64,000 bases of DNA from Candidatus Heimdallarchaeum aukensis (GCA_021513695.1 CP084166.1:1984001-2048000); one strand, 5' to 3'; positions 18,114 to 52,200 are shown, counted from the first letter of the stretch. A program made the numbers and translations. Notes: generated by a model from the letters alone, not told the origin.

Positions 18114-18470
18114 CTATTGTTGACAATTTGACGAACTGTGGAAGGAGAGAGGCACATTTAGAGAACGTATTAAAAGCGTCCCGTTTCCTCCACTTCCTCC
18201 AGATGAACCTTGAGTCATTGTAAAGGTAAACGTTTGGCGTAAAAGATGGTCGTAATCCAAAAAACTGCCAGTAAGTTCATCAACTTCTGAAGTAAACCAA
18301 TGTGAATTTGAATAAGTTCGCACGCTCAATGCAGTTAATCCATCCCAATATGAAGTAACATAGTGTTCCTGCTCAAAGTTTATGTTATCATCTAGATGAT
18401 TAACATGAAGTTCCCATTCAGGGTCATCCCCATTATCTGGACAGTCATTGGTACTGTATTCATAATCCAC
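18114..18470 (-). CDS. hypothetical protein (GTG start; possibly a fragment)
   Basis: ORF with no ATG; its first codon is GTG. D/E-rich N-terminus and a GSSGGSGGNG linker. Weak. Confidence 0.15.
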   Translation of the reverse strand: MDYEYSTNDCPDNGDDPEWELHVNHLDDNINFEQEHYVTSYWDGLTALSVRTYSNSHWFTSEVDELTGSFLDYDHLLRQTFTFTMTQGSSGGSGGNGTLLIRSLNVPLSFHSSSNCQQ

Positions 18471-18889: not shown

Positions 18890-18920
18890 ATAGGCGAAAA
18901 CTGATATCTAAAGTAATCGA

Positions 18921-28567: not shown

Positions 28568-28617
28568 ATCTTTTGAAAAAAATATGAGAAAGCGAATATT
28601 TATCTTAAACTAGTAAG

Positions 28618-35326: not shown

Positions 35327-35497
35327 ATTGAGAATAAGATAAAATTAATTTAAAACAAAAACAAAGTAAAATTCTAGATATGCTGATTCGTTAATTCTCT
35401 TTTTTAAATTGCTAGAGAAATATATTAGGCAAAAATCCGATCTCATACAGCATTTAAAAGTTGGAAAAGTCTTAATTTGAAATAAGAAAAATGCAAG

Positions 35498-35605
35498 TGG
35501 TGCACGCGCCGGGATTTGAACCCGGGTTCCGTCAGTTCCACAACTACTTTCATACAGAAAGCAGCTTGGCAGTGACGAGTCCTAGCCAAACTAGACTACG
35601 CGAGC
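35498..35605 (-). tRNA. tRNA-Gly (GCC) with 31-nt intron at 37/38, CCA encoded
   Basis: Reverse complement folds as acceptor GCTCGCG/CGCGTGC (one U-U mismatch at 3:70), D stem GTCT/GGAC, anticodon stem CGTCA/TGACG, loop CU-GCC-A, a canonical T arm (CCGGG-TTCAAAT-CCCGG), and discriminator A. The intron region forms a bulge-helix-bulge: two 3-nt bulges separated by the 4-bp helix CUGC/GGUG. Confidence 0.7.
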
Positions 35606-35763
35606 ATAAATTATTTTTAACTAATTTCTGATTAATGCTTTTTCCTTCTTAATTAAATTTTTCGCTTATTGTTATGCTTTTCTTGATGTTGTAAATTCAA
35701 CGAAAATGGTTTAATAACTTTCCAAAAGATCTATTTTTTTTGAGATAATGAATGTAATTTAAC

Positions 35764-36675
35764 TTACTGTTCTTGTTTAACCCTTATTTTTTTCCAAACA
35801 ATTTCTTCATTTTTGGGCATTGTTTTATTTTGTACAAAGAATTCATCTATATATTCACACATTCTACACGTTTTGTTACAATAGTTCTTGTCTTTAATTC
35901 TAGGTGATAATTGTTCTTCAGATTTTAGTTTCTCAACAAAGGATATAATACTACTAATCCTTTTTAATTCTATATCCTCCTTAGGTATATCTAATATTAT
36001 TCTTTTCTTTTCATCATTGTTATTTAAGTACCACAGTTCAGGAGTAATTTCGATATTAGGTTTCTTTTTTCTAATAATTTCTGAGTAGGTTAACACTTGC
36101 CTTTTATCTCTTGGTGATTTTTTTCCTGTTTTTAGTTCTATCACTCTTATTGCTGTTCGATCTACTGTCCAAGCTAATATGTCTATTCTGCCTGTTAAAA
36201 GAAATTTTTCTGATAATTCATACTCAATTTTGTATTCAGTTCCGATAACAAGAGAAATTAATCTTCCTTTATTATTCTCTTCAACTAAAGTAGAACAAAG
36301 CATAGCCAAAGAGCGTAAATTAAAATAAAGCTCATCGTCAAACTTTACTTCTTTTTCTCTTTCAATTATACAATCAAAGTCCTTTTCTCCATCAGGAAAG
36401 AAAAATCTTTCTGTCAACTCATATAAAGCGGTAAAAAAAGATTCTTTGACGGATAGTTTTTCGTGTATGTAAAAATGTTGTACTAAGTCGAAATTGTTTG
36501 ATAAAACAGATTGTAGAAGTAGATGGTAAAAAGTTCCTAGCTCCATAGATCTTGAAGAAGAAGCATACTCTCTCAATTTATTCATTTTAAGTAGAACTTC
36601 AATATACGGTCTTATTGTACAAAAATCATCTTCAAGAACATCAGTAACGCTAATACTAACATGTTTTTGGAACAT
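35764..36675 (-). CDS. Cas4-like PD-(D/E)xK nuclease (DUF83/RecB-nuclease family)
   Basis: N-terminal Cys (DDFCTIRPY), GTFYHLL, motif II GRIDILAW, motif III IELKTGK, a QxxxY (QVLTY) motif, and a C-terminal C-x3-C-x2-C cluster (CNKTCRMC). Start set at the ATG; a GTG lies 9 nt upstream. Confidence 0.6.
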   Translation of the reverse strand: MFQKHVSISVTDVLEDDFCTIRPYIEVLLKMNKLREYASSSRSMELGTFYHLLLQSVLSNNFDLVQHFYIHEKLSVKESFFTALYELTERFFFPDGEKDFDCIIEREKEVKFDDELYFNLRSLAMLCSTLVEENNKGRLISLVIGTEYKIEYELSEKFLLTGRIDILAWTVDRTAIRVIELKTGKKSPRDKRQVLTYSEIIRKKKPNIEITPELWYLNNNDEKKRIILDIPKEDIELKRISSIISFVEKLKSEEQLSPRIKDKNYCNKTCRMCEYIDEFFVQNKTMPKNEEIVWKKIRVKQEQ

Positions 36676-36764
36676 GACATTCACGCTAATCTTTAATCTT
36701 TTAATAAATTTATAAAAAAGAAAAAAACATAGTCAAAAATAACACATCTTATTTTTTTATTATT

Positions 36765-38219
36765 ATGTTTATATATCGAAAAGTTATTTTTGAATTTGAA
36801 ATGGCTTCAAGAACACATATTCAAGAATATGAATCATGTATTGTTTTCCAGAAATTTATGATCGAAGAAAACATACTTGTTAATTTCTGTAAACATATCG
36901 ATTTTGGCATAGATGGTGAGCTGGATATATTACAAGAAGAGCCAAGGGATGATTTTTACGAAGAACGTAGAGCAATAGATATAGATTTAAGGAAAAAGGC
37001 TTTTGTTCAACTCAAATCTAAAAGAGAAAAAAGTAGGGTAAATGAAGATGGAACTGTTTCATATAGCTTTAAAAAACGACATTTAAAACTATGGCAAAAT
37101 TCGCCCATACCCGTTTTTGTTTTTTTGGTTTACCTTGATGACTCAAAAGAGATCTATTGGACATATGTTGATATTGACTTACAAATAGAAGAAGGGGAAT
37201 CGGAATGCCAAAACCTTACTCTTGAAAAACTAGAGAGGGGATGTAGAAATAAATTCAATAAGATAATTGAGGAGCATTATAAAAAAACAGGATACAAATA
37301 TAATGTCTCAACAAAATTACCAATGTTTAGAGATTTTATTGAAAGGAGAAAGCAAGGTTTAGAACTAAGAAAAAGTTTGATTTTCAAGGAATTAAATCCA
37401 ATAGAAGATAAAAAGGCTAAAATGTTAAGTCCTTTTCCTAAATCAGGATTGAGAAGCAAAACCAGCTACTCAGGATATGCCTTATCTATAGATGATTTCT
37501 ATGAAAAAATAGATGACGATGAATACATTAATGAGCTTTTTAGCCGTAAATCAAGGATAGAAAGCAATATTATTGAGAGTGTATATAAAGCAGAAGTAGC
37601 AAAGATAAAATATGATCTTGTAAATAATCACGAAACATTTTTTGATGATAGTTGGATTGAAATATTTGAAAATATAACAAAAATAACAGAGGAATATACA
37701 AGACCTATTTTGTTTATTAATAGTGAACTAAGAGATATTATTCGAGGGATTCCTGCAGCAGATAGACCTAGTCTAGTAAATCAAGTTCTTCATAATTCAA
37801 AAGAAGATGCAATATCACATTCTCATTATGAAAACATAATAAATGGAAAAAATGTTTATTTCTATTTCTTTTATATTCCTAGACACTTAAGTAAAAAGTT
37901 TCCTGTGTTAAACGATATTAAAATAATTATCTTAGATAGAGAAAAGGTAAAATATATTGTTAAAGAGCCATTAAGATTAGAATGGAGGACGATTACTAGG
38001 CCAGTTCAAGTTGATATTATCGATGGCGCAGCATATAAAGTTACAAAAAAAGAAGAAGAGTGGGATTGGTTTGACTTTACTTGTTATACTATAGGAGAAA
38101 TAAGAAATGAAGGACCAATAAAAATATACAAATTTTCCGAAGATGAGAAAAAGGAATTACAAGACTTTGAAGATAGACTAATAAAACTTACAAAATCAAG
38201 AAAGATTACCAAGGAATAA
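36765..38219 (+). CDS. hypothetical protein with N-terminal DUF4365-like (restriction-endonuclease-fold) module
   Basis: N-terminal IDFGIDGELDIL ... AFVQLKSK ... HLKLWQNSPIPVFVFLVY resembles the DxGIDG / VQ[VL]KS / PV.LV pattern of DUF4365, which I recall from memory only. A large ~330-aa C-terminal region has no recognised motif. Confidence 0.4.
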   Translation: MFIYRKVIFEFEMASRTHIQEYESCIVFQKFMIEENILVNFCKHIDFGIDGELDILQEEPRDDFYEERRAIDIDLRKKAFVQLKSKREKSRVNEDGTVSYSFKKRHLKLWQNSPIPVFVFLVYLDDSKEIYWTYVDIDLQIEEGESECQNLTLEKLERGCRNKFNKIIEEHYKKTGYKYNVSTKLPMFRDFIERRKQGLELRKSLIFKELNPIEDKKAKMLSPFPKSGLRSKTSYSGYALSIDDFYEKIDDDEYINELFSRKSRIESNIIESVYKAEVAKIKYDLVNNHETFFDDSWIEIFENITKITEEYTRPILFINSELRDIIRGIPAADRPSLVNQVLHNSKEDAISHSHYENIINGKNVYFYFFYIPRHLSKKFPVLNDIKIIILDREKVKYIVKEPLRLEWRTITRPVQVDIIDGAAYKVTKKEEEWDWFDFTCYTIGEIRNEGPIKIYKFSEDEKKELQDFEDRLIKLTKSRKITKE

Positions 38220-38240
38220 TCACGTTTATTTTTTATTTAC

Positions 38241-38540
38241 TTATTCGTCTATTATTTTTTGTATTTCTTGTATAAATTCTGCTACTTTAGTTCCTTTTTC
38301 TGTTAGGCTAAAAACACGTTTATTGTAAGGAGGTAGGTATTCCTCTTCTATGAGTTCAAGGACGAGAAGTTTGTTAAGTGAAGTATAAACAGATGTTTGT
38401 GCTATACCAGGTATATTATCTATCAGTTGTGTGATCATTGCTTTTTTTTCAGATAATAGGTATAACAGTATCCTAAGAGCTCCTTTTTGTTCAAGTAAAG
38501 AAAGGGAACCTTCTCGTTCTCTCATTCTTCGGTATCCCAT
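38241..38540 (-). CDS. winged-helix transcription regulator (PadR/ArsR-like)
   Basis: 99 aa: LRILLYLLSEKKAMITQLIDNIPGIAQTSVYTSLNKLLVLELIEE... resembles HTH plus wing. Confidence 0.5.
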   Translation of the reverse strand: MGYRRMREREGSLSLLEQKGALRILLYLLSEKKAMITQLIDNIPGIAQTSVYTSLNKLLVLELIEEEYLPPYNKRVFSLTEKGTKVAEFIQEIQKIIDE

Positions 38541-38998
38541 ACCCTTAAACTGTCTAAGAGCTAAAAAATATTCTTATACAATTAATGTATGCATATATAC
38601 GAATGTTTTATATATGAGTAAACCAAATAATACGTAGGGGTTAAGCGACAGAATAAAAATAGAAATGAACCTAAGGAGCGATGAAAAAAGAATGATGGGT
38701 CAAAGATATGAGAAGAAAAGAAGAAAAAAACGTATATACGCCTTCTTCTGTAGTCTGTTCCGTACATAAATATATAGGGGACAAAGAGTTAGGTGTTTTG
38801 TGGATAAGTATTCAACTAGAGGGTGTAAAGCCTGATTTTTATAGTTTTGTTAGTAGAACATTTATAGGAAAAAAGTTTCTTTTATTTTTTTCTGCGTTTA
38901 TAAATTATTTTTATGATAAATATTGTAAACAACAAACCAAGAGGAGGAAAGAGAAGGACTTCTTCACTTCAAAAAAGTGAAACCGTGTGGTGGAGTTT

Positions 38999-40180
38999 AT
39001 GACTGTAAGTGAAAGGGGAAAGGATAAGTTTTTTTCAAATATCTATTATGATTTTAAAGGGGAAAAAAATAGAACCTTAGCAGATATAATTCCGTTTGAG
39101 TTTGAAGCAGTAATACAAGAGGAACATCTGATTGCTATTCAAGATATTAGAATAAAGGCAGGAATAAAATATCATCTACATATTAAAAGTTTGGAGACAG
39201 ATCAAAAATTACAAGGAGTAGACCTTTTAATTAGAAAACGTGGAGAGAAGATAGTTTTTACTTTGTCGCATCGAATGAAAAAACTGTTCAAAAAAGGAGA
39301 AAAAGTAAAGGTCAGTATCTTTTGTCCAACAGAAGATTTTTACGGTTTTTACGGAAGAAAACAAAAAGAAGGAATAAGAGATGTATCCATCCACAACGAT
39401 GAGATCTTGTGTATAGCTTTTATCTATCAAATGGGAGAAAATAAAAGGCTAATCAGTCTCAATAGCGAAAATGAAGAGTATTTGTCAAAATTAGAAGGAA
39501 TACAAGAGACTTTTCGTATCTTGGATGATAGAATAATAAGGAGAGATGAGGAAGGAAATGTCCCCTTTGAAGCTAAAAGTTACTCTAATTATGCAATAGT
39601 AAGATACTACACGATAATGAACAGGTATGATTTCATAAAGAATCAAGAAAATCACTCTTCTGTTTATACTTACTTCGTAGGAGATGAAAAAATCCTTCCT
39701 ACAGTAACATCCGTCAAAGCTTGTTTAGTGATAGTAATAAACAAGTCCTTGATTCCTATATGTCTAGAAGAGAGAGTAAGAAAAGAAATAAACATGTTTC
39801 TGGACAAAAAAATGCCTTTATTTAAAATACAAGACCAACTTTATGAATTAAAAAGAGTAATTTTGCAATGTATTAGAGCGTATTATAGACCTCCAGTAGC
39901 AGAAGAGACATATAACGAGTTCAACATTAAATCAATGCTTTTTCATTTAAACCGTCCAACTTCTCCTGTATACAAAGCAATTATATCCCTCATTTCTTTT
40001 GACAACTACATCTCAGTGGAAAAACTGGTAAAATATGTAGAAAAGAGGTATAAAATAAAAGATAGACGTTACATCAGTGAATCGTTAACAGAACTGATAA
40101 ATCTTGGAATTATAAAAAGAAAGGTTGAGGACGGAAAAGTAGGGGTAGGGGTTGTGAGGTCATATGATGAAAAAAGATGA
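38999..40180 (+). CDS. hypothetical protein with C-terminal winged-helix-like domain, coupled to ParA
   Basis: ATG at 38999 is preceded by ggtggag; the track start is a GTG 12 nt upstream. The C-terminal ISESLTELINLGIIKRK looks like a wHTH. The gene overlaps the downstream ParA gene by 17 nt. Confidence 0.4.
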   Translation: MTVSERGKDKFFSNIYYDFKGEKNRTLADIIPFEFEAVIQEEHLIAIQDIRIKAGIKYHLHIKSLETDQKLQGVDLLIRKRGEKIVFTLSHRMKKLFKKGEKVKVSIFCPTEDFYGFYGRKQKEGIRDVSIHNDEILCIAFIYQMGENKRLISLNSENEEYLSKLEGIQETFRILDDRIIRRDEEGNVPFEAKSYSNYAIVRYYTIMNRYDFIKNQENHSSVYTYFVGDEKILPTVTSVKACLVIVINKSLIPICLEERVRKEINMFLDKKMPLFKIQDQLYELKRVILQCIRAYYRPPVAEETYNEFNIKSMLFHLNRPTSPVYKAIISLISFDNYISVEKLVKYVEKRYKIKDRRYISESLTELINLGIIKRKVEDGKVGVGVVRSYDEKR

Positions 40181-40964
40181 ACAAGGAAAAGTAGTGAGTT
40201 TTTTCAGTTTTTCAGGAGGAGTAGGTAAAACGACTTTAGTTGTTAACATCGCCAAAATATTAGCAGAACAAGGGAAGAAAACAATAGTGCTAGAACTAGA
40301 ATTACTTTCACCTAAATACCAAACTATTTTTGGGTTTAATCCTGCGAAATCTATAGATGAATTATATATGCAAGATTATAGAAACATCCTTGAACTAGAA
40401 ACGATTGATAGAATAATTAAGAAAAGTATAATTACAAACGATTATGGAGTAGATTTCATTATCCCTACTGCTCCAGCAACAATAGAAGATCTAATTAACA
40501 GAGATAGAGACTATCATCATAAAGATTTTGCAAACTTTATAAGAAATTTACTAGCTTATCTGCGGAAGAAATACGAAATAGTGTTGATAGACTCTCCAAG
40601 TATAACGAACACCGAAATAATGAGTGTTTTACTGCTATCAGATAAATTAGTTTATGTCTGTATTCCCCCTTTGGGAGATATATCTAAAGGAATAGAAAAA
40701 ATAAAAAAATTTCCAGAGAGTACATTCATCGATCCGATTGATGTGATAATAAATAAAGTACCAGTAGAAACAGAGAAAGAGAGACAAATATTGGAAAGAA
40801 AAATGAAAGAACAACTAAAGAAAGAACAAATAAACAAAGTAAGAGTAGTAGAATTATCACTAGATTATATAAAAGAGAATGTAAAAGAAAGGAGAATATA
40901 CATAGAAAAAGAAAAGGAAAAAAACATGTACCAAACACTGCTAAACTACAGTAAAGAATTATGA
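40164..40964 (+). CDS. ParA/MinD-family P-loop ATPase
   Basis: Deviant Walker A FSGGVGKTT and Walker B-like IVLIDSP. 266 aa. Confidence 0.75.
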   Translation: MMKKDEQGKVVSFFSFSGGVGKTTLVVNIAKILAEQGKKTIVLELELLSPKYQTIFGFNPAKSIDELYMQDYRNILELETIDRIIKKSIITNDYGVDFIIPTAPATIEDLINRDRDYHHKDFANFIRNLLAYLRKKYEIVLIDSPSITNTEIMSVLLLSDKLVYVCIPPLGDISKGIEKIKKFPESTFIDPIDVIINKVPVETEKERQILERKMKEQLKKEQINKVRVVELSLDYIKENVKERRIYIEKEKEKNMYQTLLNYSKEL

Positions 40965-40995: not shown

Positions 40996-41050
40996 CTATC
41001 ACTATCCCTATCTCTAAAACTATCACTATCACTATCATTATCACTATTAT
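40996..41050. repeat. hexanucleotide tandem repeat (CTATCA-like, ~9 units)
   Basis: ctatcactatccctatctctaaaactatcactatcactatcattatcactatta, located between the convergent gene ends of ParA and the beta-helix gene. Confidence 0.5.
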
Positions 41051-41131: not shown

Positions 41132-42514
41132 CTATCTTCTATTTTTTAAAAAACGGAGGAGATTTTTAAGGGAGAAAAGAGAAACAAAGGATAAGGGAGT
41201 AATTACGATTATTAAATACATCATCTGATTCTTAACTAAGGGATTGGTATGATTGTAAAATTCTTCAAGATTAGTTAGACCGTCCCCGTCAAAATCAAGA
41301 TAAGAGTCATTAGTCAAAGGGTCAGAACCATAATGAACTTCCCAACCGTCAGGTAAAAGGTCTCCATCAGTGTCGCTAGACCAAGGATCAGTACCATAAA
41401 CATGATCTTCAAGATAATCCAGAAGGTTATCTCCATCGAAATCGCTCCCACGAGGAAAAGGGTCAAAAGCTTTAGCCGCGCCATCGATAGGGTAAGGTTC
41501 AGAGCCATCAGTATCTGACCAATAGTTGCCAATAGAATAGACGGGGTCAAACCAAGTGTTATTTATCCCATCATCAAAAGCTTGAGAAAGGTTCTTACCT
41601 TGATTGTTCTTGAAAAAAACATTACGAGAGATAAAGTTGTTAGAAGCAGATTTGTAAATATATAGTCCATACTCGCTGTTATTAAAAAAAACATTAGAAG
41701 AAAGGTGATTGTTAGAACCACTTACGGACAAACCACTTCTTCTGCTCTCGGAAATAACGTTATCGGTCACAGTGTTATTATCCCCACCTATTGCTAACCC
41801 ATCATAATTGGTATAAATAATGGTATTATTTGATATGAAGTTATTATGTCCTGAACTAAGAATTCCCCGTTCTCCACTATACAACAAGTAGTTATTAGTA
41901 ATAACGTTAAAACAAGTGTCGGTCATATCAATGCCACTTGCCCATCTAGTGTAAGAAATGTTATTACCGCTAACCAAGTTGTGAGAACCGTAGTGGATAT
42001 CTATTGCCTCCTCGGTGTGAGTGATAAAATTGTTAATAATGACATTATCAGAACTATGTAATGTTATCAATTCGCGTGAATAAGTTTTATTGGTCCCACC
42101 AATAAGAGTGGAGCCTTCAAGATGAAGATGGGCATTATCCCGTGCTCCAATATTCCAAGGACTGTCGGTGTAAGTTAGGATAGTAGTATCATAGATCGCT
42201 AAAGAAGAATTATCATAGGCATAAATACTTAGAGAACCTACTCGATCATGTTCAATAACAATAAAACAGTTACGAAGAATAAGAGAGCCTTCGTCCTTGA
42301 CATCAACTCTGTTGGTAAGTTTAATAAACTCGTTCTCAACTACAGTAGGTTCGGTAATGTTCCAAATACCATCAGGGGGAGGAAAAGAGCCAGAGCTAGA
42401 TGCTGAAGAAGTAACTATCGGACTAAAAGTAGGTGAAAATAACATAATAGAAGAAAAAATCATAAACACAAGTACAAACGAATTCTTTTTCCTTTTTTTT
42501 AGAATAAATATCAT
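41132..42514 (-). CDS. secreted right-handed beta-helix (pectin-lyase-fold) protein with Ca-binding D-x-D-G-D repeats and C-terminal TM anchor
   Basis: N-terminal signal peptide, then repeated N/S/G-rich ~22-aa units (NNTIIYTNYDGLAIGGDNNTVTDNVISESRRSGLSVSGSNN...). These are followed by DFDGDNLLD, DTDGDLLPDGWE and DFDGDGLTNLEE motifs and a final hydrophobic helix with an RK tail. Confidence 0.6.
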   Translation of the reverse strand: MIFILKKRKKNSFVLVFMIFSSIMLFSPTFSPIVTSSASSSGSFPPPDGIWNITEPTVVENEFIKLTNRVDVKDEGSLILRNCFIVIEHDRVGSLSIYAYDNSSLAIYDTTILTYTDSPWNIGARDNAHLHLEGSTLIGGTNKTYSRELITLHSSDNVIINNFITHTEEAIDIHYGSHNLVSGNNISYTRWASGIDMTDTCFNVITNNYLLYSGERGILSSGHNNFISNNTIIYTNYDGLAIGGDNNTVTDNVISESRRSGLSVSGSNNHLSSNVFFNNSEYGLYIYKSASNNFISRNVFFKNNQGKNLSQAFDDGINNTWFDPVYSIGNYWSDTDGSEPYPIDGAAKAFDPFPRGSDFDGDNLLDYLEDHVYGTDPWSSDTDGDLLPDGWEVHYGSDPLTNDSYLDFDGDGLTNLEEFYNHTNPLVKNQMMYLIIVITPLSFVSLFSLKNLLRFLKNRR

Positions 42515-43293: not shown

Positions 43294-46200
43294 ATGGAGA
43301 AAATAAAGATAAAGAAAAAATTAACAATTTATTCAATTTTAATAATATTAATATTCTCTAATTTAAGTGGATTGAATTTTAAATTTTTGCAAGCAGAAAA
43401 TGGAGATCAAAGTCCTCCATCTATACTCAGAGTAACACAGTTTCCTGAAGTTCCTACCCAATTCGATGGAGTGGTAGTCTATGTAGAAGTGGAAGACGAA
43501 ACAGGGTTCAGTTCTATATATTTGATGTACGAAAGGAATAATAACTTAACATCCATACCAATGAAGTATTTACCCAATTATTATGGGAATGGAACATGTT
43601 TTTACGCTTCTCTTCCTTCTTTTTCTGCAGGAACTAAAATAACTTATTTTATCGAAGTGACTGATTCGAGTGAGAATCAGAATATTGCACACTCACTAAA
43701 ATATGATTATGTGGTGGTGAGTGACGGAATACCAAAAATACAGTTATTAAACGAACCAAAATTTCTGTATTTAGGAGATGAATATAAATTCCAGTTTACA
43801 ATTTATGATGAGGATAATATTTCTCTTCAAGATACAGGGATTGATCCACCTTTATTATATTACAGAACAGAAAGAGTAGAAGGAACACAACAAGTAGTTT
43901 ATAATTCCACAACAGGGGTATTTGAAAGCGTTTTACCTTCTGTGAATCTACTAGATGGAGAAATGAGTGAAGGAGAAAATATAGAGGTGTGGGTAGGAGC
44001 TTATGATAAAAGTCCTGCACACCAGTATGGGGAGAGCAAACATTTGCAGTTACCTGTCATTAACGAGAAACCTTACATTTATGGCGTAGATAGGTATCCA
44101 TATATTCCTTTGTATAATGAAAGTTTCAATTTAACCACAACAATCTATTATAGAGAAAATATAGGTATGAATATCACGCAAGTATCAGCAACTATAAACC
44201 GATATGATGAGGTTACACAAAAAATTACAAAACAAAGTTATATTTTAACCCAAAGTGAATATTCAAAATTTGTATTTACAGGAATAATAGAATCGATTGG
44301 GTATATAGACAATATAGAATTGAAAATAAATTGTAAGTACACTTCAGATTACCAAATAGAAGAAGCAGAAGTAGAAAAACAAGAAAAAAGTTTTAGAGTA
44401 AGAGATTGCGAAGCGCCAACAATATTAGAAAGTGGATTTAGCAACGGGGTATCAACATTAAAAGAAGGAGAAGAAGTAAAAATCTATGCTAATGTACTTG
44501 ATCGTTTGAATACAAAAGATGTCACTGCAATAATTACTGAAGAGTATAAATCAGGATTGCAACTTATTCGTTCATCAAAGGAATATTTCCAGAAAATGGG
44601 TTATTATGGAGATGACGGGATAAGTTTTATTCAACAGATGAGTATTGATCAGAGTATAAGTGGAGATTTTTATTTTGATGGATTAGTTCTAAAAGAAGAA
44701 TATGTTAGTGCAGTGAGAAAAGAAGCAGCAAGTGAAACATTAGTTATTTACGCGGTAGAAGGAAAAAATGAATTATTTATCAAGATTATCAACCCAGAAG
44801 GGTTTGTTCCTTTAAGTTATAATCAGTTGGTTATACAAGCAAAAGCTATAGGACAAGATATTCTTTTAGCAGGAGTATACACTGATTTAGGAGAAACAGT
44901 TGTTTGGAATGAAACAGTAGGAGAGTATGTTTACGATAATGTACTGCCTATAGACAAGGTTTTTACTATAGATGAATACGGAACAGCTTGTTTATACAAT
45001 CTTCAAAATATGGACGATATTACAAATGCGATATGGATAAAATTCGTTCCTGCTGAAGGAGGAAATTTTAGTTCATCTGATGGTTTAAGTATTGATAATA
45101 TTAGATTGTTTAGTATAAATACTTTAAATGGCGAGAGAATAGACTCTTATCATCAAGAAATAAATCATGATTTTGTTGAATACTATGGCTATTATCAAGC
45201 TAAAAAGGTTGATCAATTAATAACTTTCTATATCCAAGCGAGCGACGGAATAAATATCCAAACCCAAAATAATGAGGAAACAATAATAGTAACTGATGGT
45301 AGACCTCCAACATTTGCCATCAAACAAATTTCTGGAGTGGATATAGGTGATATTGAAATCAACTTTAGCATGGCTATCACTGATTATTCTATAATAGATC
45401 CAACTGATGCAGTAAATGTTCGTTTTCATTACAAGATTAACGGATTAGAAGAAATAAGTGCGAACTTAACAGTTGAGAATAACTGGGACGATAAAGGAAA
45501 AGTGTGGGTGTATAGGCTTGACACTACAACAAATTTAAATTTCAACGATATGTGGAAATATTGGTTCAGTGCAGAAGATCCTTGTGGTAATCGTGGAGAA
45601 AGTAAACATTACTCTTTTGTTGTAGAAGAAAATAGTGCACCTACAATATCTTTAACTTGTCAGACCGTTACATATAATGGAGAAGAAAAAACAGTTGTTG
45701 ATCCTGCAGGGGCAGAAATAGGAATATCTGGAGAATATTTAGACATAAACATGGATATAACAGAGAATGAAGGAGGAAGTGGAATAAAACTTATCCAGCT
45801 ATATTGGTATACTTCTTCTCATGAATCAAATTGCTGGAGTTCGGAAGTATATAGTTTTATGTCTAGCTATTCTATCACTAATTTAACTGTAGCAGAAAAA
45901 ATGATACATAATTTCGATAAAGTAGGTATACTTTATTATTATGCACAAGTAATTGATCATGCAGGAAACATTTATCAAACACCAGAATATCAAGTACAGC
46001 TAATAGATAATGTAAATCCTATAATAAAAATCAACTCTGAATATAATAGTCCAAATGGGTTGTATAATGTCGACAATTCGTATGGTGATATAAGCTATAA
46101 TGAAGATGCATATATCACTTTAGAAATAGAAGATGCATCTACTATAACTAACCTAATTTTGGAGGCAGAAACATCTCAAGGTACCTTTGTAGGAGAAGTG

Positions 46201-49200
46201 GTATGGGACGAATATTATCATGATTGGACATTACAACATTATCAGATTAAAATAAATAAAGCGTGGGAAGTAGGAGAAAATATCAATCTAAAGATTACAG
46301 CGGTAGATTCTTTTGGAAATGCACTAAATAATATTTTTTTGGGTACAGAATACATTGTAGACAAACTTCCTCCTGTTTTACTCTCCTATTCGGATAATAA
46401 TTATGAACTGGGGGGAGGAGAAATAACTATTTCTTATCAAGTTAAGGATATAGGAAGTGTTGTAGCTTACCTTTATTATAATTTCAATTCTTCAGTGGAA
46501 ACACCCTCAACTGAAAATGCTACTCTTTCAGATTTTCAAGTAGCTGTAATGGATCTTGAATCAATAGATAATACGAAATATGCTCCTTATACTGAATGGT
46601 CATTTACCAAAACATTATCTCTGCCATCGGGAATATTATATCCTGCGGTATCAATATATTTTGTAGCATTAGATGAATATAATAACAGTTTAACATGTAT
46701 TGGAGGAAAAGCATATTCCCTACCTAATTTTGATATAGAAACAAGTATTTATACTCCTCGTATTGAATCATATAAAAAACTTGCTGATAAATTTGGAGAT
46801 TTTAGAGAATACCCCAGAGATAACGTAGATAAAAGATGGGTGGGAGAAACAGAAACAACTATAATTTCCTATGATTTTAGTGTAGAAGAAAATTTTTCTA
46901 TAAACTACGCTCATCCTTATGGAGATAGATTTGCAAAAAGTGTAGTAGATTTTTACACTCATTATTGTGAAAATAGTTTCTATGCTCTTGGAGCACCAGA
47001 TGGAAACATGGCAGAAGTTACTGGAAGTATACGTTTAGACATGGGGCATGAAGGAATAATAGTAAGTAAGCCTGGAGATGGAGCAGATTTCACAGTTTAT
47101 GGAGGGTCAGGACAATATCAAGTATTAGTATTTAACTCGTGGTTTCCTATGGAAGAATATCATTATCTAGGAACAGGAACGGGTATAACTTCTTGGGACT
47201 TAGAAGATGAAGGGTTAGATAAAGCACGATATGTAGAAATATGGAGTGAAACCGTAGAGGATGACATTCCAGTATATATTGATGCAATAGAAGCAATACA
47301 TTGTGATGGAGATAGTTTCACTGCTCAAGAATGGCAGAATGCAGAAGAAAATAATGGAATTCCAGCAAATATAGAAGATAAGCAACTTTCAATGTATTAC
47401 CATGGATATAATGAAAATAATGAAATATTAGAAATCACAGCCAATCCTGAATTTTATGACTACTTATATTTACCCCTATGGATGAATACTTATCTCCCTC
47501 AAATAAAACTGTCAATCAATTTTGTACAGCAACCTTATTCTGTTGATCTTTTTGCGGTAGATAATATGGCAAGAGATACTCTGATGCAAAATGGAAGTTA
47601 TGTGCATCTAGGAAAAATAGATGGCTCAGGAGTGTATTATTTTGCATGTTCATACCCTAATAGATACACAGGTGTGTTGTTTAAAATAAGACATAACTGG
47701 GCAAGAATAACGAGCGAACTTGTGCAAATGTACAATTATGAATTTACGCTTGATTATATTAAATTATTTGGCATTTTTTATAGAATAGAAGAATTATCAG
47801 GACCAAATTATTTGGAATTCGAAAAAATGTATGAAAAAAATAGCGGGAGAAATCCTGACCCTCTATTTTTGCAAATGGAAAATTATAATGGTGAAAATCA
47901 GAAAAGTGCAAGTATAGGTAATATCACAGAGGAAATATGGTATGATGCAATTAATGAATTGGAAGTTTTTTATGGTACAAAGGGAGAATGGTTTTATCTT
48001 GCAATTGATAGAGCAAGTGAGAAACCTAATAATTCCATTGTTACAGATGTTCAAATTGTTTATGTAGACGGAGAAAGATTATATTGGAAGAGTGCATACA
48101 ATAACCAAAAAAGAATAGCTTTAATTTTTGACACTTTAGAATTCTATGAAACTTATGGAGTGAGTAATTACTTTTACATTATGTCGAATGCAACGATTGA
48201 TGGAGATGGATTTACAGCTTATTATTATTCTTTTTATTCTAATAATGAATTGTTACAAGGGTTCAACTATGAAGGGATACCTCAGGCAGATTTCAGGACA
48301 GGTGATGCACTTAACCCCACTCTTGAAGATACAAGTTACGATTCTCCATGGTGGAATAACCCATTAGATTTTACCTCTCTCCATTCAGATAAACACGGGT
48401 GTATAGTCGTACAAATCCAAGAAAATCAATCTGGTAATCTTGATCATCTAAATTTTGAAGGATATTACTCCTTCTTGTTGGATGATCTCTATCTTGGTGG
48501 AGAAGAATTACATGAAAATAGAATCGGTTATCTCCCTATACATATAGAAGGATTTAGCTACTATAATGGAATAATGAACGGTTTTTATATTACTGACGAT
48601 ATTCACCCCAAACTAAGATTACAGACATCTATCGAGAATCTTTATTCTCATCCCTTAGAATTAAAGTATGTTCTTCCTGTCGCATTTATTGATTATGGAG
48701 AAGGGTGGTTACCCAGAGAAATAGAAAATTATGATAATAGCTACTTAGCTAATGAAAGATATAGATGGATTGAGGTAGAATTTCACAATAAGATTCAATA
48801 TGATATTACAGAACTAAATAATGATTCATGCACGCTTTGGCAGAAAGTGTTTGACTCTCAATCAAATGAGATTTATTTTGAAGAGAGCTATACTCATTAT
48901 AAGAGTAAAAATGTAGATAATGAATTTACTAAAAGTTTCTCCCACATAATCCCTGAATCAGAAGCTATTTTTCCAAGTTCTTATCAGTACTTTACTTATA
49001 GAGCAAGTTTAAACTATGTAGGAAGTATTTCTTCTTCCGATTACATACAAGTTGATTCACCAGAGTTTAGAATAGGAAATACAAAAAAAGAAGATTCAAA
49101 TATCAATGAACAATATGAAAGAGCGAAAGATGGAAACAGATTCTATTATTTCCTTCCATATGAGAGTGATACAAATTCTATTGCATTTGTGAATATCTCA

Positions 49201-52200
49201 TCTAAAACTATAAGATTTGACGATGAAGCTTGTACTCCAAGTAACATAATAGACAAGATAAACATAAAAGCTCGTTTATCTCTCGATATAGGGGAAAGTA
49301 TAGAAAAAGTTTCAATTTACAAAATATACGCAATAGATATTGAAAATAAAGAACATGTTCTATACTTATCAAATGATGATGAATACTATTTCGATTATAC
49401 AAGTGATCTAAATTATGAAATAGAATTAAATATTTCAGCAGATTCAGCGTATTTCTATATAATAAAAGAGTTTAAAGTAGAATTTAAAATAAAAACCTTT
49501 ACACAAAGTGCTCAAAATGTATTAGAAATATGTTTTGCAGAGTTGAAAGTTATCACTGATGAATTTTTACCATATGATGTCACCTATCCAAAGGATACAT
49601 CACCTCCTTCAATCAATCTAATTCCTGTCTCTCCTCTGAGTCTAGAAAATAGCACTTGGACGTTTTTATACTCTGCAGAAGATTATTCTGGATTGAAAAA
49701 TAATCAGTTCCAATATCGTATAAAATATGATTGGGGAGGAATAGATGATCAAGGTATAGTATATACTAAATCCGATAGTTATTCAGAATACATGGTTTTT
49801 GATCTTGGAGATATTTTTAATATTTATAGCCCTAGCCCTCAAATTGAGGGGGATGTTACCTATTACGCAAAGCGAATATGGATAGAAATTTATGCTGTGG
49901 ATGGTTCAATATGGGAAAATGAATATATCTATGAAAAAACATGGCAGATAGATGATGGTATCAATCCTTGGATAGAACAACAATTTAATTATCTTATTGT
50001 GCAAATGTACAATAATAGTCAGCTGATCTGGACAGAAGCGAAAGATATAGCAGGAGTAAATACAGTTGAACTCATAATAGTAAATATCGAAGATTTTCAT
50101 CATAATATTTATCAAATTAATGATATTTACACATTAAACAAAATTAACAATAGATGGTATTTAGGAGATGGTTTAACTCCATTTAGTTTTTACAAATATG
50201 GAGACGAGGAAATCATACCTTACAAAGTAAATTACTATTACACCATTCATGCAGAAGATGGAAAAGTATGGGATTCAGAAATATTTACTCTTCAATATAA
50301 GGATGGAATAGCTCCCAGCTACTATACTCACTCAATAGAAGCTTATACCGACGCAGAAGATGTGATAATTGAGATATGGACGTATGATGAGATATTTACT
50401 AGCGATGAACTAAATGTTTCAGCAGAATATTGTCAATCTATTTATGAGAATTTTGAATGGACAAATAATGGAACAATATATTATGAGAGTTTCAGTTTGC
50501 AAACTGATGGAGAAATAATTCACAATGGAGAAACGTACTATAGATATAAACTAGTTATTCCTCATGATAGAATTGAAGCAGGGTACGGAATAGTAGGAAA
50601 AATAATTGTTTCAGATCTAGCATCAATACCTAATGTTTTTACTATTCCCATAGAATTACAATTATATGACTCGAGAATAGTATTAGGAACGCCTTATCTT
50701 AATCCTACTCCGGATCAAAATGGCTATGTTCATTTTCTTTCTGATTTATCCCTATCAGTTACTATCATTGAATCGTATTATCCTACTCCTGTCGTATGGG
50801 CAGACGTGTATGTCAATAACGTTTACTCTACTACATTGAATCTGGGAACAGGAGATTATGTTACATACGTTTATGGTTCATTTGACTATAATACCTTAGG
50901 AGCAACATTACAAGATGAAGTAAGATTAGAGTTACATGCTTCAGCAACTATTAACACAGAAACAGTGAATGAAGAAGAAACAAGAATAATAGATTTCGTT
51001 TATTGGGACATTGTTCCTCCCGAGATTACCTATGTTTCTTCTATTCCTGCAAGAATGAACCCTGCAGAATTTACATTTAAGGTAAAAGAAGATATTAGGA
51101 CTATTATTCCTGGGTTAATTACAATCGAATATTCTCCCTATAATCAAAACAATTGGAATCCGTGTAGTGTGGATTATACTGAATCTTTGGGAAATGGAGA
51201 ATGGTTAGTTAATGCTTCGTTCGACAGTTCAAGCATGTCCGCAGGAGAAATATATGATTTTAATATAACAGTAACGGATTATTATAGTGTTACAAACTTA
51301 ATAGTCAGTCGAACTTTGACAGATATTACAGCTCCCACGGTTTTATTCAATTCTCCCTCCTCTCCAGGATACAGTCAAGATATTACAGTGGAAGCAGTTT
51401 TGGTCGATGATTCGGCAGTGGATACAGAAAACGTGTATATTAACTACAAGAACGAAAATGGAGAATGGGTATATACAACAAATTTCAGCAACGAACAAAA
51501 AATGATCTATGATGCTAATACTAACTCTTTCCACTTTACACTAGTATCAGAAAATCATCAAGCTCCTTACGCTATGCTGATAAAAATATGGTGTCAAGAT
51601 GAATATGCTAATTCACATTGGTCAGAATTCACAATATCTCTAGAAGATGACACTCCACCACTTATTATGAATGATGAAGTGTTAGTGAATATAGATAACA
51701 TCAATGAAATTACAGCGGTAGCAGATACTGAAATTGTCATAAGAGCAAGAGATGCTTGGTCAGAAATAAGAGAAACAGAAGTTCAAGTGTATAAAGAAGT
51801 AGGTACTGATAGCTGGGAACTAATAGCTGTTATTCTTCTTTCTCCAGACAGTAGTAGAGATGAAGGAATATTTAAGGGATATAGTGGAATATTAAATAGA
51901 GAAACACTTGAAACAAACAATGTTGTAACAGGAACTCGGTTGAAATTTATTCCTTGGTTTGTCGATGATAAAGGAAATGAAGTCGATACTTTGGAAGTTA
52001 CAAGGACGGTAATTGAAGGAAAGCCTGAAATAAAATCAGTAACTATGAATCCTTCCCCTAGTTCATATCTTCCTTATAATTCTACAGTAAATATAGAAGT
52101 TAACGCCACTTGCGTTTATGGTGTAGAGGACGTTAAATTAGATATATATATTGATGAAGTGTTGAAGATAGCTGATTATTCTTTCACTTTTGATTCTGGA

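What the first reader, a model, noticed from the sequence alone, without database searches (positions are those of the whole stretch)
35498..40964. tRNA-Gly-adjacent accessory module: Cas4-like nuclease divergent from a DUF4365-like protein, plus regulator and a ParA-coupled DNA-binding protein
Immediately next to an intron-containing tRNA-Gly, a classic integration hotspot, lie five genes.
- A Cas4-family PD-(D/E)xK nuclease, with motifs I-III, QxxxY and a 4-Cys cluster.
- Across an 80-bp divergent intergenic region, a 484-aa protein whose N-terminus resembles the DUF4365 restriction-endonuclease-fold module, fused to a large unknown C-terminal domain.
- A small wHTH regulator.
- A 393-aa protein with a C-terminal wHTH whose stop overlaps a ParA/MinD ATPase.

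No CRISPR array or other cas gene is nearby, so the Cas4-like enzyme is stand-alone. Two interpretations fit. One is an uncharacterised two-nuclease defence module. The other is the remnant of an integrated plasmid or provirus carrying its own partition cassette (DNA-binding adaptor plus ParA) and anti-host or anti-defence nucleases. No integrase is visible, so the element may be degraded or the integrase may lie elsewhere.
Basis: partly seen in the sequence, partly recalled or inferred. Interest (0 to 1): 0.7.

Follow-up and report, generated by a model that had tools for sequence, protein, structure and literature searches.

The report
Left arm of a giant-gene aloposon
The five genes are real, but they are the front end of a roughly 36-kb accessory element already described in this Asgard archaeon (an "aloposon", with two giant surface-protein genes), which sits between two glycine tRNA genes and encodes no recognisable integrase.

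Summary
They are an intron-containing tRNA-Gly(GCC), a Cas4-like Fe-S nuclease, a DUF4365/DREN-nuclease protein, an HxlR-type wHTH and a 393-aa wHTH protein overlapping a ParA/MinD ATPase.

The window is Ca. Heimdallarchaeum aukensis. The genes are not a self-contained island. They form the left arm of a block that continues through a NosD-like protein and two tandem giant genes (4223 aa and about 5000 aa). It ends about 25 bp from the 3' end of tRNA-Gly(UCC), next to the L11 gene. This matches the published "aloposon" (Wu et al. 2022, Aloposon3).

The sister genome PR6 carries a full copy 235 kb away. At the orthologous site PR6 keeps only an internally deleted remnant: Cas4-like plus 52 codons of DUF4365, fused to the last 35 codons of giant 2. 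A third strain keeps only a giant-2 tail.

However, the element is intact, and no integrase or transposase was found in any part I could read.

HxlR, the 393-aa protein and ParA form a conserved, aloposon-specific cassette. The two nucleases are a separable, faster-evolving terminal pair whose role (cargo defence or mobility) is unresolved. The element is already known; the anatomical detail is new.

The parts
35498..35605 (-). tRNA-Gly(GCC) with an intron of about 33 nt and an encoded CCA. This is the host gene forming the left border of the variable slot. Its 5' end faces the element.
   Evidence: Rfam RF00005, 45.9 bits; sequence. It is conserved beside the o295 gene in PR6 (L021) and in L022, where it has no intron.
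35686..35769 (.). Left junction zone of the element. Homology with three other genomic contexts starts or stops inside these 84 bp, just beyond the Cas4-like stop codon.
   Evidence: PR6 site B homology starts near 35686. Homology with L022 ends at 35753. Homology with L020 ends near 35769, where it joins the 23S rRNA 3' flank.
35764..36684 (-). Cas4-like RecB-family PD-(D/E)xK nuclease with four Cys (a putative 4Fe-4S cluster). It is the terminal gene of the element. The likely start is the ATG at 36675 (303 aa).
   Evidence: PF12705 E 2e-11; PADLOC Cas4 1.8e-10; TIGR00372 39 bits, below its cut-off of 65; PHROG exonuclease 1.7e-8. Motif positions. Alignment of copies.
36685..36764 (.). Divergent intergenic region, AT-rich, between the Cas4-like and DUF4365 genes.
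   Evidence: ORF coordinates. Only low-complexity AT palindromes were found.
36765..38219 (+). DUF4365/DREN-type PD-(D/E)xK nuclease domain (about aa 37-140; D46/D50/E52, Q82-x-K84), followed by about 330 aa that match no known family.
   Evidence: PF14280 E 5e-12; PADLOC Aga_REase 5e-8, nuclease part only. PDB DREN-APAZ and DUF4365 alignments. Only two homologues in 5.8 billion proteins. The AF2 model was unusable, pLDDT 29.
38241..38540 (-). HxlR/PadR-like winged-helix regulator, transcribed divergently from the 393-aa/ParA operon.
   Evidence: PF01638 E 1.6e-7. PDB YodB 2e-5. A 46%-identical homologue occupies the same position in the distant relative L017. dN/dS 0.09.
38708..38980 (+). 90-aa ORF (o90). 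It is doubtful as a gene and may be leader or regulatory sequence.
   Evidence: No family hits. Only 23% identity to the positional equivalents, and the C-terminus differs in PR6.
38987..40180 (+). Aloposon-specific 393-aa protein (annotated start 38999). Predicted domains are an N-terminal small beta-barrel, a central longin/roadblock-like alpha/beta domain and a C-terminal winged helix. It is the presumed DNA-binding partner of the ParA-like ATPase.
40164..40964 (+). ParA/MinD-superfamily P-loop ATPase lacking the signature lysine of the deviant Walker A motif (FSFSGGVGKT).
   Evidence: AAA_31 1.6e-14, CbiA 3e-12. Archaeal MinD TIGR01969 1e-13, below its cut-off. PDB archaeal MinD 5e-6. Alignment with homologues.
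40996..41047 (.). (CTATCA)n hexamer array, about 9 copies, starting 32 bp after the ParA stop. It is a candidate centromere-like binding site (inference only).
   Evidence: TRF and repeat finder. It is conserved in PR6 with fewer copies and is identical in L014.
41132..42514 (-). NosD-like beta-helix protein (460 aa) with an N-terminal signal/TM and a C-terminal TM segment.
   Evidence: PF05048 1.4e-19, Beta_helix, TSP3 repeats. Syntenic in PR6 and L014.
43294..55965 (+). Giant gene 1 (4223 aa; Otus/Ephialtes class). It has N- and C-terminal hydrophobic segments and no Pfam domain.
   Evidence: A 4225-aa orthologue is present in PR6 and L014.
55968..64000 (+). Giant gene 2, N-terminal 2677 aa or more; it runs off the end of the window. 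Its C-terminal 2451 aa lie on contig L023 and end about 25 bp from the 3' end of tRNA-Gly(UCC), followed by L11, SecE and Spt5.
   Evidence: Open frame. No Pfam domain. Right end on L023.

Best explanation
**What it is.** The finding is the left, upstream arm of Aloposon3 of Candidatus Heimdallarchaeum aukensis. This accessory element is about 36 kb long and has nine ORFs: Cas4-like, DUF4365, HxlR, o90, the 393-aa protein, ParA-like, NosD-like, giant 1 and giant 2. It fills the slot between tRNA-Gly(GCC) and tRNA-Gly(UCC)/L11.

**Shown.**
- The whole block recurs at 92-95% nucleotide identity at an unrelated site in the sister genome PR6.
- The Cas4-like end of the block also abuts a 23S rRNA gene in a third lineage.
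- The orthologous slot in PR6 holds an internal-deletion remnant that keeps both termini of the element.
- The slot in a third strain keeps only a tail of giant 2.

**Inferred: two separable sub-modules.**
1. *The conserved cassette: HxlR (divergent), then (o90), the 393-aa protein and ParA.*
   - The wHTH repressor probably controls the operon.
   - The three-domain 393-aa protein probably binds element DNA. The CTATCA iterons or the 38.5-39.0 kb control region are candidate sites.
   - It would then recruit or regulate the signature-lysine-less ParA/MinD ATPase, giving segregation or positioning of an element copy or its nucleoprotein complex. This is analogous to three-component archaeal partition cassettes.
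2. *The terminal pair of PD-(D/E)xK nucleases: Cas4-like with an Fe-S cluster, and DUF4365/DREN.*
   - This pair evolves faster and has been exchanged by recombination between element variants.
   - It most likely acts as cargo that protects or stabilises the element: defence, counter-defence or addiction.
   - Less likely, it acts in end-processing during movement.

No integrase or transposase was found in the parts read, so how the element moves is unknown.
For: **Identity.**
- The 393-aa protein is 100% identical to K9W45_09080 of H. aukensis.
- P0, L1 and the flanks are 93-99% identical to PR6.

**Aloposon hallmarks** (Wu et al. 2022, PMC8813620).
- Tandem giant genes: 4223 aa, and a second of at least 2677 aa in the window plus a 2451-aa C-terminal piece on L023.
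- A MinD/ParA gene within the run of genes upstream of the giants.
- A tRNA immediately downstream of giant 2: tRNA-Gly(UCC) at L023 7385-7485.
- A near-identical element at another site in PR6: window 35686-48211 matches L013, 235 kb from the P0 locus.

**Slot polymorphism.**
- PR6 site A holds an intact Cas4-like gene and 52 codons of DUF4365, fused to the last 35 codons of giant 2 (97% identical), then tRNA-Gly(UCC) and L11.
- L022 holds a 631-aa protein and a 214-aa remnant of the giant 2 C-terminus.
- In L020 the Cas4-like end joins the 23S rRNA 3' flank.

**No recombinase found.**
- The Pfam scans of window ORFs found none.
- GenBank protein accessions run from UJG39990 (o295) to UJG40000 (L11). 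That leaves room for exactly the nine ORFs. This is an inference from numbering.

**Cassette conservation.**
- The 393-aa family has only 4 clusters in 1.84 billion representatives.
- L017 shows HxlR(-), a small ORF, a 378-aa homologue and ParA in the same layout, at 33-46% identity.

**Fold of the 393-aa protein.**

**Selection and recombination.**
- dN/dS is 0.09 for HxlR, 0.21-0.43 for ParA, 0.33-0.37 for the 393-aa protein, 0.40 for Cas4-like and 0.55 for DUF4365.
- Between the window and L014, synonymous divergence is about 0.33 in the 5' part of DUF4365 but 0.0085 in the 393-aa gene.
Against: - I could not see the figures of Wu et al. The text names neither coordinates nor which four genes lie upstream of the giants. 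The equation with 'Aloposon3' therefore rests on matching features, not on published coordinates. The supplements gave no coordinates.
- All three strains carry the element or its remnants at the same slot. That fits long residence plus decay as well as it fits recent integration. Movement is inferred from copies in different contexts, not observed.
- No terminal repeats or att duplications were found.
- The window and L023 do not overlap, so a stretch of giant 2 is unseen.
- The functional roles of every gene are inference from family or fold.
- The 393-aa model has modest confidence (pLDDT 66.6, from 4 sequences).
- ParA/MinD ATPases also position non-DNA cargo.
- In PR6's full copy the Cas4-like gene is a pseudogene (IS insertion plus a stop codon). 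The L020 copy has lost one Cys ligand. The nuclease is therefore not needed to keep the element in place.
Confidence: 0.82

Rival explanations
1. The Cas4-like and DUF4365 genes form an autonomous two-nuclease defence (or abortive-infection) module. It merely rides at the edge of the element, or resides at the tRNA-Gly site, and the ParA cassette and giant genes are unrelated neighbours.
For: - DUF4365 is the DREN effector nuclease of the SPARDA defence systems.
- There are PADLOC hits to Cas4 and to the Argonaute-associated REase.
- The gene pair is divergent and evolves faster, with signs of allele exchange.
- An intact Cas4-like gene is retained at the tRNA-Gly site in PR6 although the rest of the element was deleted.
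- The same region in PR6 also received a CRISPR-Cas locus.
Against: - No complete known defence system is matched. There is no pAgo or APAZ, and the Cas4 hit is below its cut-off.
- In PR6 site A the DUF4365 gene is destroyed while Cas4-like is kept. In PR6 site B the reverse holds. The two are therefore not obligately paired.
- All dN/dS values are below 1.
- The pair travels with the giant-gene block to PR6 site B, and in L020 it sits at a third site with its downstream content unseen.
Confidence: 0.3
2. The block is a degraded remnant of an integrated plasmid or provirus. It has kept its partition cassette and nucleases but lost its integrase and replication genes.
For: - A ParA plus a DNA-binding partner is a typical plasmid partition layout.
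- The Cas4-like protein hits phage exonuclease PHROGs.
- The ParA-like protein hits a phage ParA-like partition PHROG.
- No integrase is present.
Against: - The same nine-gene organisation is kept at 92-95% identity in two genomes and in a metagenome contig, with genes under purifying selection. That is not decay.
- There are no replication, capsid or conjugation genes.
- No relatives were found in 2.9 million viral contigs for four queries.
- The genuine remnants (PR6 site A, L022) look quite different.
Confidence: 0.07
3. The locus is not a mobile element at all. It is a host gene cluster for giant cell-surface proteins. The NosD-like protein and the two giants are the products, the ParA/MinD ATPase and its partner position or regulate surface assembly, and HxlR is the regulator. 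The different locations reflect ordinary genome rearrangement and duplication.
For: - The giants and the NosD-like protein have N-terminal signal/TM and C-terminal TM segments and no nucleic-acid domains.
- MinD/ParA ATPases commonly position non-DNA cargo (established knowledge).
- No recombinase, no att repeats and no compositional anomaly were found.
- All three strains have the element or its remnants at the same slot.
Against: - Junctions in three independent contexts fall within 84 bp of the same end.
- The second PR6 copy has host genes right up to that junction.
- There is rapid loss in close strains.
- The published analysis treats these elements as transposed.
Confidence: 0.15
4. The two PD-(D/E)xK nucleases at the element's end are its mobility machinery. 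They would work by nuclease-initiated copy-and-paste or recombination-dependent transposition, with the Cas4-like exonuclease processing ends. They would substitute for the missing integrase or transposase.
For: - No recombinase gene was found in the parts read.
- Cas4-like is the terminal gene in the other contexts seen, PR6 site B and L020.
- The PR6 remnant keeps an intact copy that could act in trans.
- PD-(D/E)xK nucleases do serve in transposition elsewhere, for example TnsA of Tn7 (established knowledge).
Against: - The full PR6 copy carries a dead Cas4-like gene.
- A distant relative has the 393-aa gene directly beside host genes, with no nucleases.
- No target duplications or terminal repeats were seen.
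- There is no precedent for a transposon driven only by such nucleases.
Confidence: 0.08

Closest known systems
Aloposons (Aloposon2/Aloposon3) of Ca. Heimdallarchaeum (Wu et al. 2022, Nat Microbiol, PMC8813620)
   Same: - Same organism.
- Tandem 3000-6000-aa giant genes.
- A MinD/ParA-like ATPase among consecutive genes upstream of the giants.
- A tRNA gene just downstream of the giants.
- A highly similar copy at a different site in H. endolithica PR6.
   Different: Nothing contradicts membership. This analysis adds detail not found in the paper's text:
- the element also carries a Cas4-like and a DUF4365/DREN nuclease at its far left end;
- it is bracketed by two tRNA-Gly genes;
- no recombinase was found in it;
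- PR6 and a third strain retain deletion remnants at the same slot.
Three-component archaeal plasmid partition cassette of pNOB8 (AspA wHTH, ParB adaptor, ParA; Schumacher et al. 2015, recalled from memory)
   Same: - A small wHTH protein, a protein of about 400 aa that is a DNA-binding or adaptor candidate, and a Walker-type ParA ATPase, tightly linked.
- The adaptor gene precedes parA and overlaps it.
   Different: - There is no detectable sequence similarity to solved partition proteins.
- The wHTH gene is divergent rather than co-directional.
- The adaptor has a predicted barrel, longin-like and WH architecture instead of ParB-N plus a CenpA-like fold.
- The ATPase is nearer to archaeal MinD and lacks the signature lysine.
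Cas4 (CRISPR adaptation nuclease) and stand-alone Cas4-like nucleases of archaeal viruses and mobile elements
   Same: - RecB-type PD-(D/E)xK motifs, QxxxY, and 1+3 Cys for an Fe-S cluster.
- Weak but specific profile hits to Cas4.
   Different: - It scores below the Cas4 equivalog cut-off (39 against 65) and has no PF01930 hit.
- At 303 aa it is much longer than the genuine 170-aa Cas4 in PR6's CRISPR-Cas locus.
- No cas1, cas2 or CRISPR array is in the window.
SPARDA DREN-APAZ effector (DUF4365 nuclease of short-Argonaute defence systems)
   Same: The N-terminal DUF4365/DREN nuclease domain, with conserved D...QxK and PxPV motifs.
   Different: - No short pAgo partner is present.
- The PADLOC Aga_REase match covers only the nuclease part.
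- The C-terminal 330 aa have no detectable APAZ similarity.

Membership tests
Aloposon (Wu et al. 2022) | Tandem genes encoding proteins of 3000-6000 aa | tested here: met
   Giant 1 is 4223 aa (43294-55965). Giant 2 is open from 55968 to the window end (at least 2677 aa), with a further 2451-aa C-terminal part on L023.
Aloposon (Wu et al. 2022) | [quoted passage not shown] | tested here: met
   HxlR, o90, the 393-aa protein and ParA-like, followed by NosD-like, lie directly upstream. The same layout (HxlR, a small ORF, a 378-aa homologue, ParA) is seen in the distant relative L017. Which four genes the authors meant could not be checked.
Aloposon (Wu et al. 2022) | Integration at a tRNA gene downstream of the giant genes | tested here: met
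   This lies outside the window but on the same sample's contig L023. Giant 2 stops at 7358, tRNA-Gly(UCC) is at 7385-7485 (-), and L11 follows.
Aloposon (Wu et al. 2022) | The same element at a different chromosomal site in the sister genome | tested here: met
   Window 35686-48211 matches PR6 2.352 Mb (L013) at about 92.7%. The P0/tRNA-Cys flank maps to 2.118 Mb.
Cas4 (TIGR00372 / PF01930) | Score above the curated family threshold | tested here: not met
   TIGR00372 scores 39 bits against a cut-off of 65. Only the general PF12705 passes.
Cas4 (TIGR00372 / PF01930) | RecB nuclease motifs plus four Cys for a 4Fe-4S cluster | tested here: met
   GRIDIL (165), IELK (182), QVLTY (196); C22, C269, C273, C276. 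Metal-cluster binding itself is not testable here.
Cas4 (TIGR00372 / PF01930) | Genomic association with cas1/cas2 or a CRISPR array | tested here: not met
   No cas genes or arrays are in the 64-kb window. The PR6 CRISPR-Cas locus nearby has its own 170-aa Cas4.
DUF4365 / DREN nuclease domain (PF14280) | Profile match above the gathering score, with catalytic D...(E/Q)xK residues | tested here: met
   46.4 bits against 24.3. D46/D50/E52 and Q82-x-K84 are present and aligned to solved DREN and DUF4365 proteins.
SPARDA (short pAgo + DREN-APAZ) | APAZ domain fused to the nuclease, and an adjacent short Argonaute | tested here: not met
   The PADLOC Aga_REase hit is limited to profile positions 35-127 of 429. 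The neighbours are Cas4-like and HxlR, and no Piwi-domain hit was found among the window ORFs scanned.
ParA/MinD deviant-Walker-A ATPases | P-loop KGGxGK[ST] with the signature lysine | tested here: not met
   The P-loop is present, but the signature position is Ser in the window, PR6 and L014, and Glu in L017 (FSFSGGVGKT / FSFEGGTGKT). Superfamily membership itself is met (AAA_31, CbiA).
Type I / pNOB8-like partition system | Centromere-binding partner homologous to ParB/AspA, and a defined centromere | tested here: inconclusive
   There is no sequence similarity to solved partition proteins. A wHTH and a barrel domain are predicted. The (CTATCA)n array next to parA is only a candidate site.
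Integrase-borne tRNA-targeting genomic island or provirus | Tyrosine or serine integrase, and a direct repeat of the tRNA 3' part at the distal end | tested here: not met
   No integrase or transposase is in the window or on L023. There is no repeat of tRNA-Gly(GCC) halves in the window. No 12-mer from the PR6 tRNA-Gly(UCC) region (L021 12640-12900), other than AT-rich low-complexity words, recurs anywhere in the window, including the left end.

The most novel reading that the evidence does not exclude
Aloposons apparently encode no integrase or transposase. The Cas4-like Fe-S exonuclease and the DUF4365/DREN nuclease at the element's left terminus could therefore be its mobility machinery. 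The intact copy kept in the PR6 remnant could act in trans. That would be a recombinase-free, nuclease-initiated way of moving a 36-kb element between tRNA-linked sites.
Probability: 0.08. Interest if true: 0.8.

Novelty: already known. Interest (0 to 1): 0.38.

Why it matters
Aloposons are among the very few non-viral mobile elements described in Asgard archaea, the closest prokaryotic relatives of eukaryotes. How they move and what they do is unknown.

Recognising this finding as the left arm of one of them prevents it from being catalogued as a new defence island. The comparison also adds testable detail:
- exact left and right borders between two tRNA-Gly genes;
- the apparent absence of any recombinase gene;
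- deletion remnants that mark the slot in sister strains;
- a lineage-restricted ParA partner with a predicted longin-like plus winged-helix architecture;
- a rapidly exchanging pair of terminal nucleases.

Tried and rejected
**Searches and models that gave nothing.**
- ARAGORN did not find the tRNA-Gly. Rfam did.
- A repeat of either tRNA-Gly(GCC) half as an att site: none in the window.
- 12-mers from the PR6 tRNA-Gly(UCC) region (L021 12640-12900) searched across the whole window, left end included: only AT-rich noise.
- AlphaFold model of the DUF4365 protein from a 3-sequence alignment: pLDDT 29, unusable, so no fold search was run on it.
- A homologue search with the 4223-aa giant timed out.
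- A profile scan of metagenome contigs with the 393-aa family failed for lack of conserved columns.
- The afdb50 fold library was unavailable.
- Viral-contig scans with DUF4365, the 393-aa family, Cas4-like and ParA: no relatives.
- Sequence search of the 393-aa profile and of HxlR against PDB for pNOB8-type partition proteins: none.
- The 46 spacers of the neighbouring PR6 CRISPR array against all held aloposon sequence: only chance matches of 19 nt or less.
- The supplements of Wu et al. hold no aloposon coordinates.

**Ideas tested and dropped.**
- The 118-aa ORF at 18114-18470 as a relative of the 393-aa protein (because L019 has a homologue at that position): no similarity.
- The 79-bp repeat beside tRNA-Gly in PR6 as a CRISPR remnant: its sequence differs from the array repeat.
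- One dN/dS comparison (DUF4365 N-terminus against L020) was out of frame and is discarded.

Full report
**1. What is in the sequence**

The window has low G+C (about 0.30) and is archaeal. It contains Orc1/Cdc6, EF-2, a 23S rRNA gene (18916-22339), FtsZ, a Ras-like GTPase, and the L1, P0 and P1 genes.

- **tRNA.** Rfam finds a tRNA on the minus strand at 35501-35605 (45.9 bits) with a 33-nt insertion after the anticodon loop. The sequence gives anticodon GCC and an encoded CCA. ARAGORN missed it.
- **Cas4-like gene, 35764-36684 (-).**
  - It passes PF12705 (E 2e-11) and hits the PADLOC and TIGR Cas4 profiles, but below the TIGR cut-off (39 against 65 bits).
  - It has the RecB motifs and C22 plus C269/C273/C276.
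- **DUF4365 protein, 36765-38219 (+), 484 aa.**
  - It passes PF14280 over residues 37-137.
  - It aligns with solved DREN-APAZ and DUF4365 proteins across the QxK and PxPV motifs.
  - The remaining ~330 aa match nothing.
- **Remaining genes.**
  - 38241-38540 (-) is an HxlR-type wHTH.
  - 38987-40180 (+) is a family-less protein whose stop overlaps the next gene.
  - That next gene, 40164-40964 (+), is a ParA/MinD ATPase.

No CRISPR array, cas gene, integrase or transposase was found among the window ORFs scanned. One correction: the tRNA-Gly(GCC) presents its 5' end to the module.

**2. Where the window comes from, and what the block belongs to**

- The 393-aa protein is 100% identical to K9W45_09080 of Candidatus Heimdallarchaeum aukensis.
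- P0 is 99% identical to that of Ca. H. endolithica PR6.
- Downstream of ParA lie a NosD-like beta-helix protein and a 4223-aa ORF. A second open frame starts at 55968 and is still open at the window end.

Wu et al. 2022 (PMC8813620) described 'aloposons' in exactly these two genomes. Their features are:
- tandem giant genes of 3000-6000 aa;
- four consecutive upstream genes, including a MinD/ParA-like ATPase;
- a tRNA site downstream of the giants;
- Aloposon2 (PR6) and Aloposon3 (H. aukensis) being one conserved element at two different tRNA sites.

All four features are met here (see the membership table). The finding is therefore the left arm of Aloposon3. I could not see the paper's figures, and its supplements give no coordinates. 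The identification rests on feature matching.

**3. Borders and comparative anatomy**

*PR6, full copy (site B).*
- Window 35686-48211 matches PR6 at 2.352 Mb (L013) at about 92.7% identity.
- The left flank of the window, up to the 3' end of tRNA-Cys (34264), matches PR6 at 2.118 Mb (L003).
- At site B the left neighbour is a host 442-aa gene. The Cas4-like gene there is a pseudogene, with an rve-type IS insertion (19-bp target duplication) and an in-frame stop.

*Orthologous slot in PR6 (site A).* I reached this through cluster members of the host gene o295. The order in PR6 is:
- tRNA-Cys;
- a type I CRISPR-Cas locus with a 47-repeat array;
- o295 and tRNA-Gly(GCC);
- an intact Cas4-like gene (96% nucleotide identity to the window);
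- the first ~52 codons of DUF4365, fused in frame to the last 35 codons of giant 2 (97% identical);
- tRNA-Gly(UCC), then L11, SecE and Spt5.

Site A is thus an internal-deletion remnant that keeps both termini of the element.

*A third strain (L022).*
- It is 96.5% identical to the window up to position 35753.
- In the slot it has instead a 631-aa surface protein and a 214-aa ORF.
- The 214-aa ORF is a shortened giant 2 C-terminus (61% and 83% identity in two blocks).

*A fourth context (L020).* The Cas4-like end joins the DNA 67 bp downstream of a 23S rRNA gene.

*Right end in H. aukensis.* I recovered this through the L11 protein.
- Giant 2 stops about 25 bp from the 3' end of an intron-containing tRNA-Gly(UCC), which is followed by L11.
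- GenBank protein accessions run from UJG39990 (o295) to UJG40000 (L11). That leaves room for exactly the nine ORFs seen (an inference from numbering).
- No recombinase was found in any part of the element that I could read.

**4. Sub-structure of the five genes**

*The ParA cassette.*
- The 393-aa protein family is extremely narrow. An exhaustive HMMER search found four clusters among 1.84 billion representatives.
- One relative (35% identity, L017) shows the same layout: a divergent HxlR (46% identity), a small ORF, a 378-aa homologue and an overlapping ParA (30% identity).
- Another relative (L018) has the small ORF and a 375-aa homologue directly beside the host LSM and L37e genes. No HxlR or nuclease gene lies upstream.
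- A third relative (L019) is an N-terminally truncated solo copy beside a 23S rRNA gene.
- HxlR, the 393-aa protein and ParA are therefore the conserved core. The 90-aa ORF is poorly conserved and may not be a gene.
- The ParA-like protein and its L017 homologue lack the signature lysine of the deviant Walker A motif.

*Predicted fold of the 393-aa protein.* The AlphaFold model has pLDDT 66.6 from 4 sequences. It shows three domains:

*A candidate binding site.* A (CTATCA)n array sits 32 bp after the ParA stop. It is conserved, with copy-number variation between strains.

*The two nucleases behave differently from the cassette.*
- dN/dS is 0.55 for DUF4365 and 0.40 for Cas4-like. It is 0.09 for HxlR and 0.2-0.4 for ParA and the 393-aa gene.
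- Synonymous divergence between the window and L014 is about 0.33 in the 5' part of DUF4365 but 0.0085 in the 393-aa gene. PR6 shows the opposite pattern. The left end has therefore been exchanged by recombination among element variants.
- The two nuclease genes are not obligately paired. PR6 site A keeps only Cas4-like, and PR6 site B keeps only DUF4365 intact.

**5. Interpretation**

*Shown.*
- The block is an accessory element with defined ends between two tRNA-Gly genes.
- It is present, absent or decayed among close strains.
- A second copy lies elsewhere in PR6.

*Inferred.*
- HxlR controls the operon encoding the 393-aa protein and ParA.
- The 393-aa protein binds element DNA and couples it to the ATPase, for segregation or positioning. 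By gene layout this is analogous to the pNOB8 AspA-ParB-ParA cassette, but there is no sequence similarity.
- The nucleases are most likely cargo that protects or stabilises the element. DUF4365 is the effector nuclease of SPARDA defence systems, and Cas4-like nucleases are common in archaeal viruses and mobile elements (general knowledge).
- A role in moving the element is possible and would be the most novel outcome.
- A rival that I cannot exclude is that the whole cluster is a surface-protein locus. In that reading the ParA-like ATPase positions protein cargo, and the multiple locations come from duplication and rearrangement.

**6. Verdict**

The suspicion of an accessory, tRNA-linked region is right. 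The unit was drawn too small, however, and the relevant tRNA is at the other end.

The element class, and this very copy, are published, so novelty is 'already known'. Interest is moderate: aloposons remain mechanistically unexplained. This comparison supplies borders, remnants, the apparent lack of a recombinase, and a structural hypothesis for the ParA partner.

Noticed in passing
window 35501-35605; L021 11221-11325 and 12766-12869; L022 11063-11135 and 14051-14122; L023 7385-7485: tRNA intron presence/absence polymorphism among very close strains. tRNA-Gly(GCC) and tRNA-Gly(UCC) carry introns of about 30 nt in H. aukensis and PR6. Both are intronless in the JGI strain L022, which is 96.5% identical to the window in the flank.
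   Followed up: partly
window 34264/34265 (3' end of tRNA-Cys); L003 11634-21014; L021 1-10000: In PR6 a complete type I CRISPR-Cas locus is inserted exactly after the 3' end of tRNA-Cys. It has cas6-, cas8-, cas7-, cas5-, cas3-, cas4-, cas1- and cas2-like genes and a 47-repeat array (repeat GTTAAAATTGGACTAATATAGGATTGAAAT). It is absent from the window and from L022. None of its 46 spacers matches the aloposon sequence held.
   Followed up: partly
L021 11019-11216 (PR6); single copy at window 35457-35496: A 79-bp unit is present in three tandem copies immediately 3' of tRNA-Gly(GCC) in PR6. It is present once in H. aukensis and in L022. It is not the CRISPR repeat.
   Followed up: partly
window 40996-41047: A (CTATCA)n hexamer array of about 9 copies sits 32 bp after the ParA stop, in the convergent gap before the NosD-like gene. 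It is conserved in L014 and shorter in PR6. It is a possible protein-binding iteron array.
   Followed up: partly
L013 8119-9133 (PR6): An IS element encoding an HTH+rve transposase (312 aa) is inserted in the Cas4-like gene of PR6's full aloposon copy. It has a 19-bp direct duplication, CAACAAAGGATATAGTCTT. That gene copy also has an in-frame stop.
   Followed up: yes
L003 4963-5969 (PR6), corresponding to window ~28605-28612: PR6 has an extra ~1 kb between the Ras-like GTPase and the HerA-like (DUF87) genes that the window lacks. It is not similar to the IS in L013.
   Followed up: no
window 40164-40964; L017 1869-2681: The ParA/MinD-like ATPase of this family lacks the signature lysine of the deviant Walker A box. 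The position is Ser here and Glu in a 30%-identical relative.
   Followed up: partly
window 43294-55965 and 55968-64000; L023 3-7358: Neither giant protein has a Pfam domain. Giant 1 has hydrophobic segments at both ends and giant 2 has one near its N-terminus, suggesting anchored cell-surface proteins. The two show no BLAST similarity to each other over the parts compared.
   Followed up: partly
L022 11425-13320: In strain L022 the aloposon slot holds a 631-aa protein with a signal/TM segment and a C-terminal TM segment. It has no detectable similarity to the window's NosD-like or giant proteins. Another surface-protein gene therefore occupies the same slot.
   Followed up: partly
L020 (JGI Ga0180301_10077337) 601-1512: This Cas4-like copy (78% aa identity) has lost the last cluster cysteine (CRMC to CKMG). 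It lies convergent with the 3' end of a 23S rRNA gene.
   Followed up: partly
window 6538-6594 (-): A C/D-box sRNA match (Rfam snoPyro_CD, 46.7 bits, just above the gathering score) lies between the EF-2 and amidohydrolase genes.
   Followed up: no
window 34439-35326: The host gene o295 encodes a P-loop protein with a weak DUF1611-like match. It stays linked to tRNA-Cys even in a Heimdall genome with only about 60% P0 identity (L009), although the tRNA is inverted there and carries an intron.
   Followed up: partly
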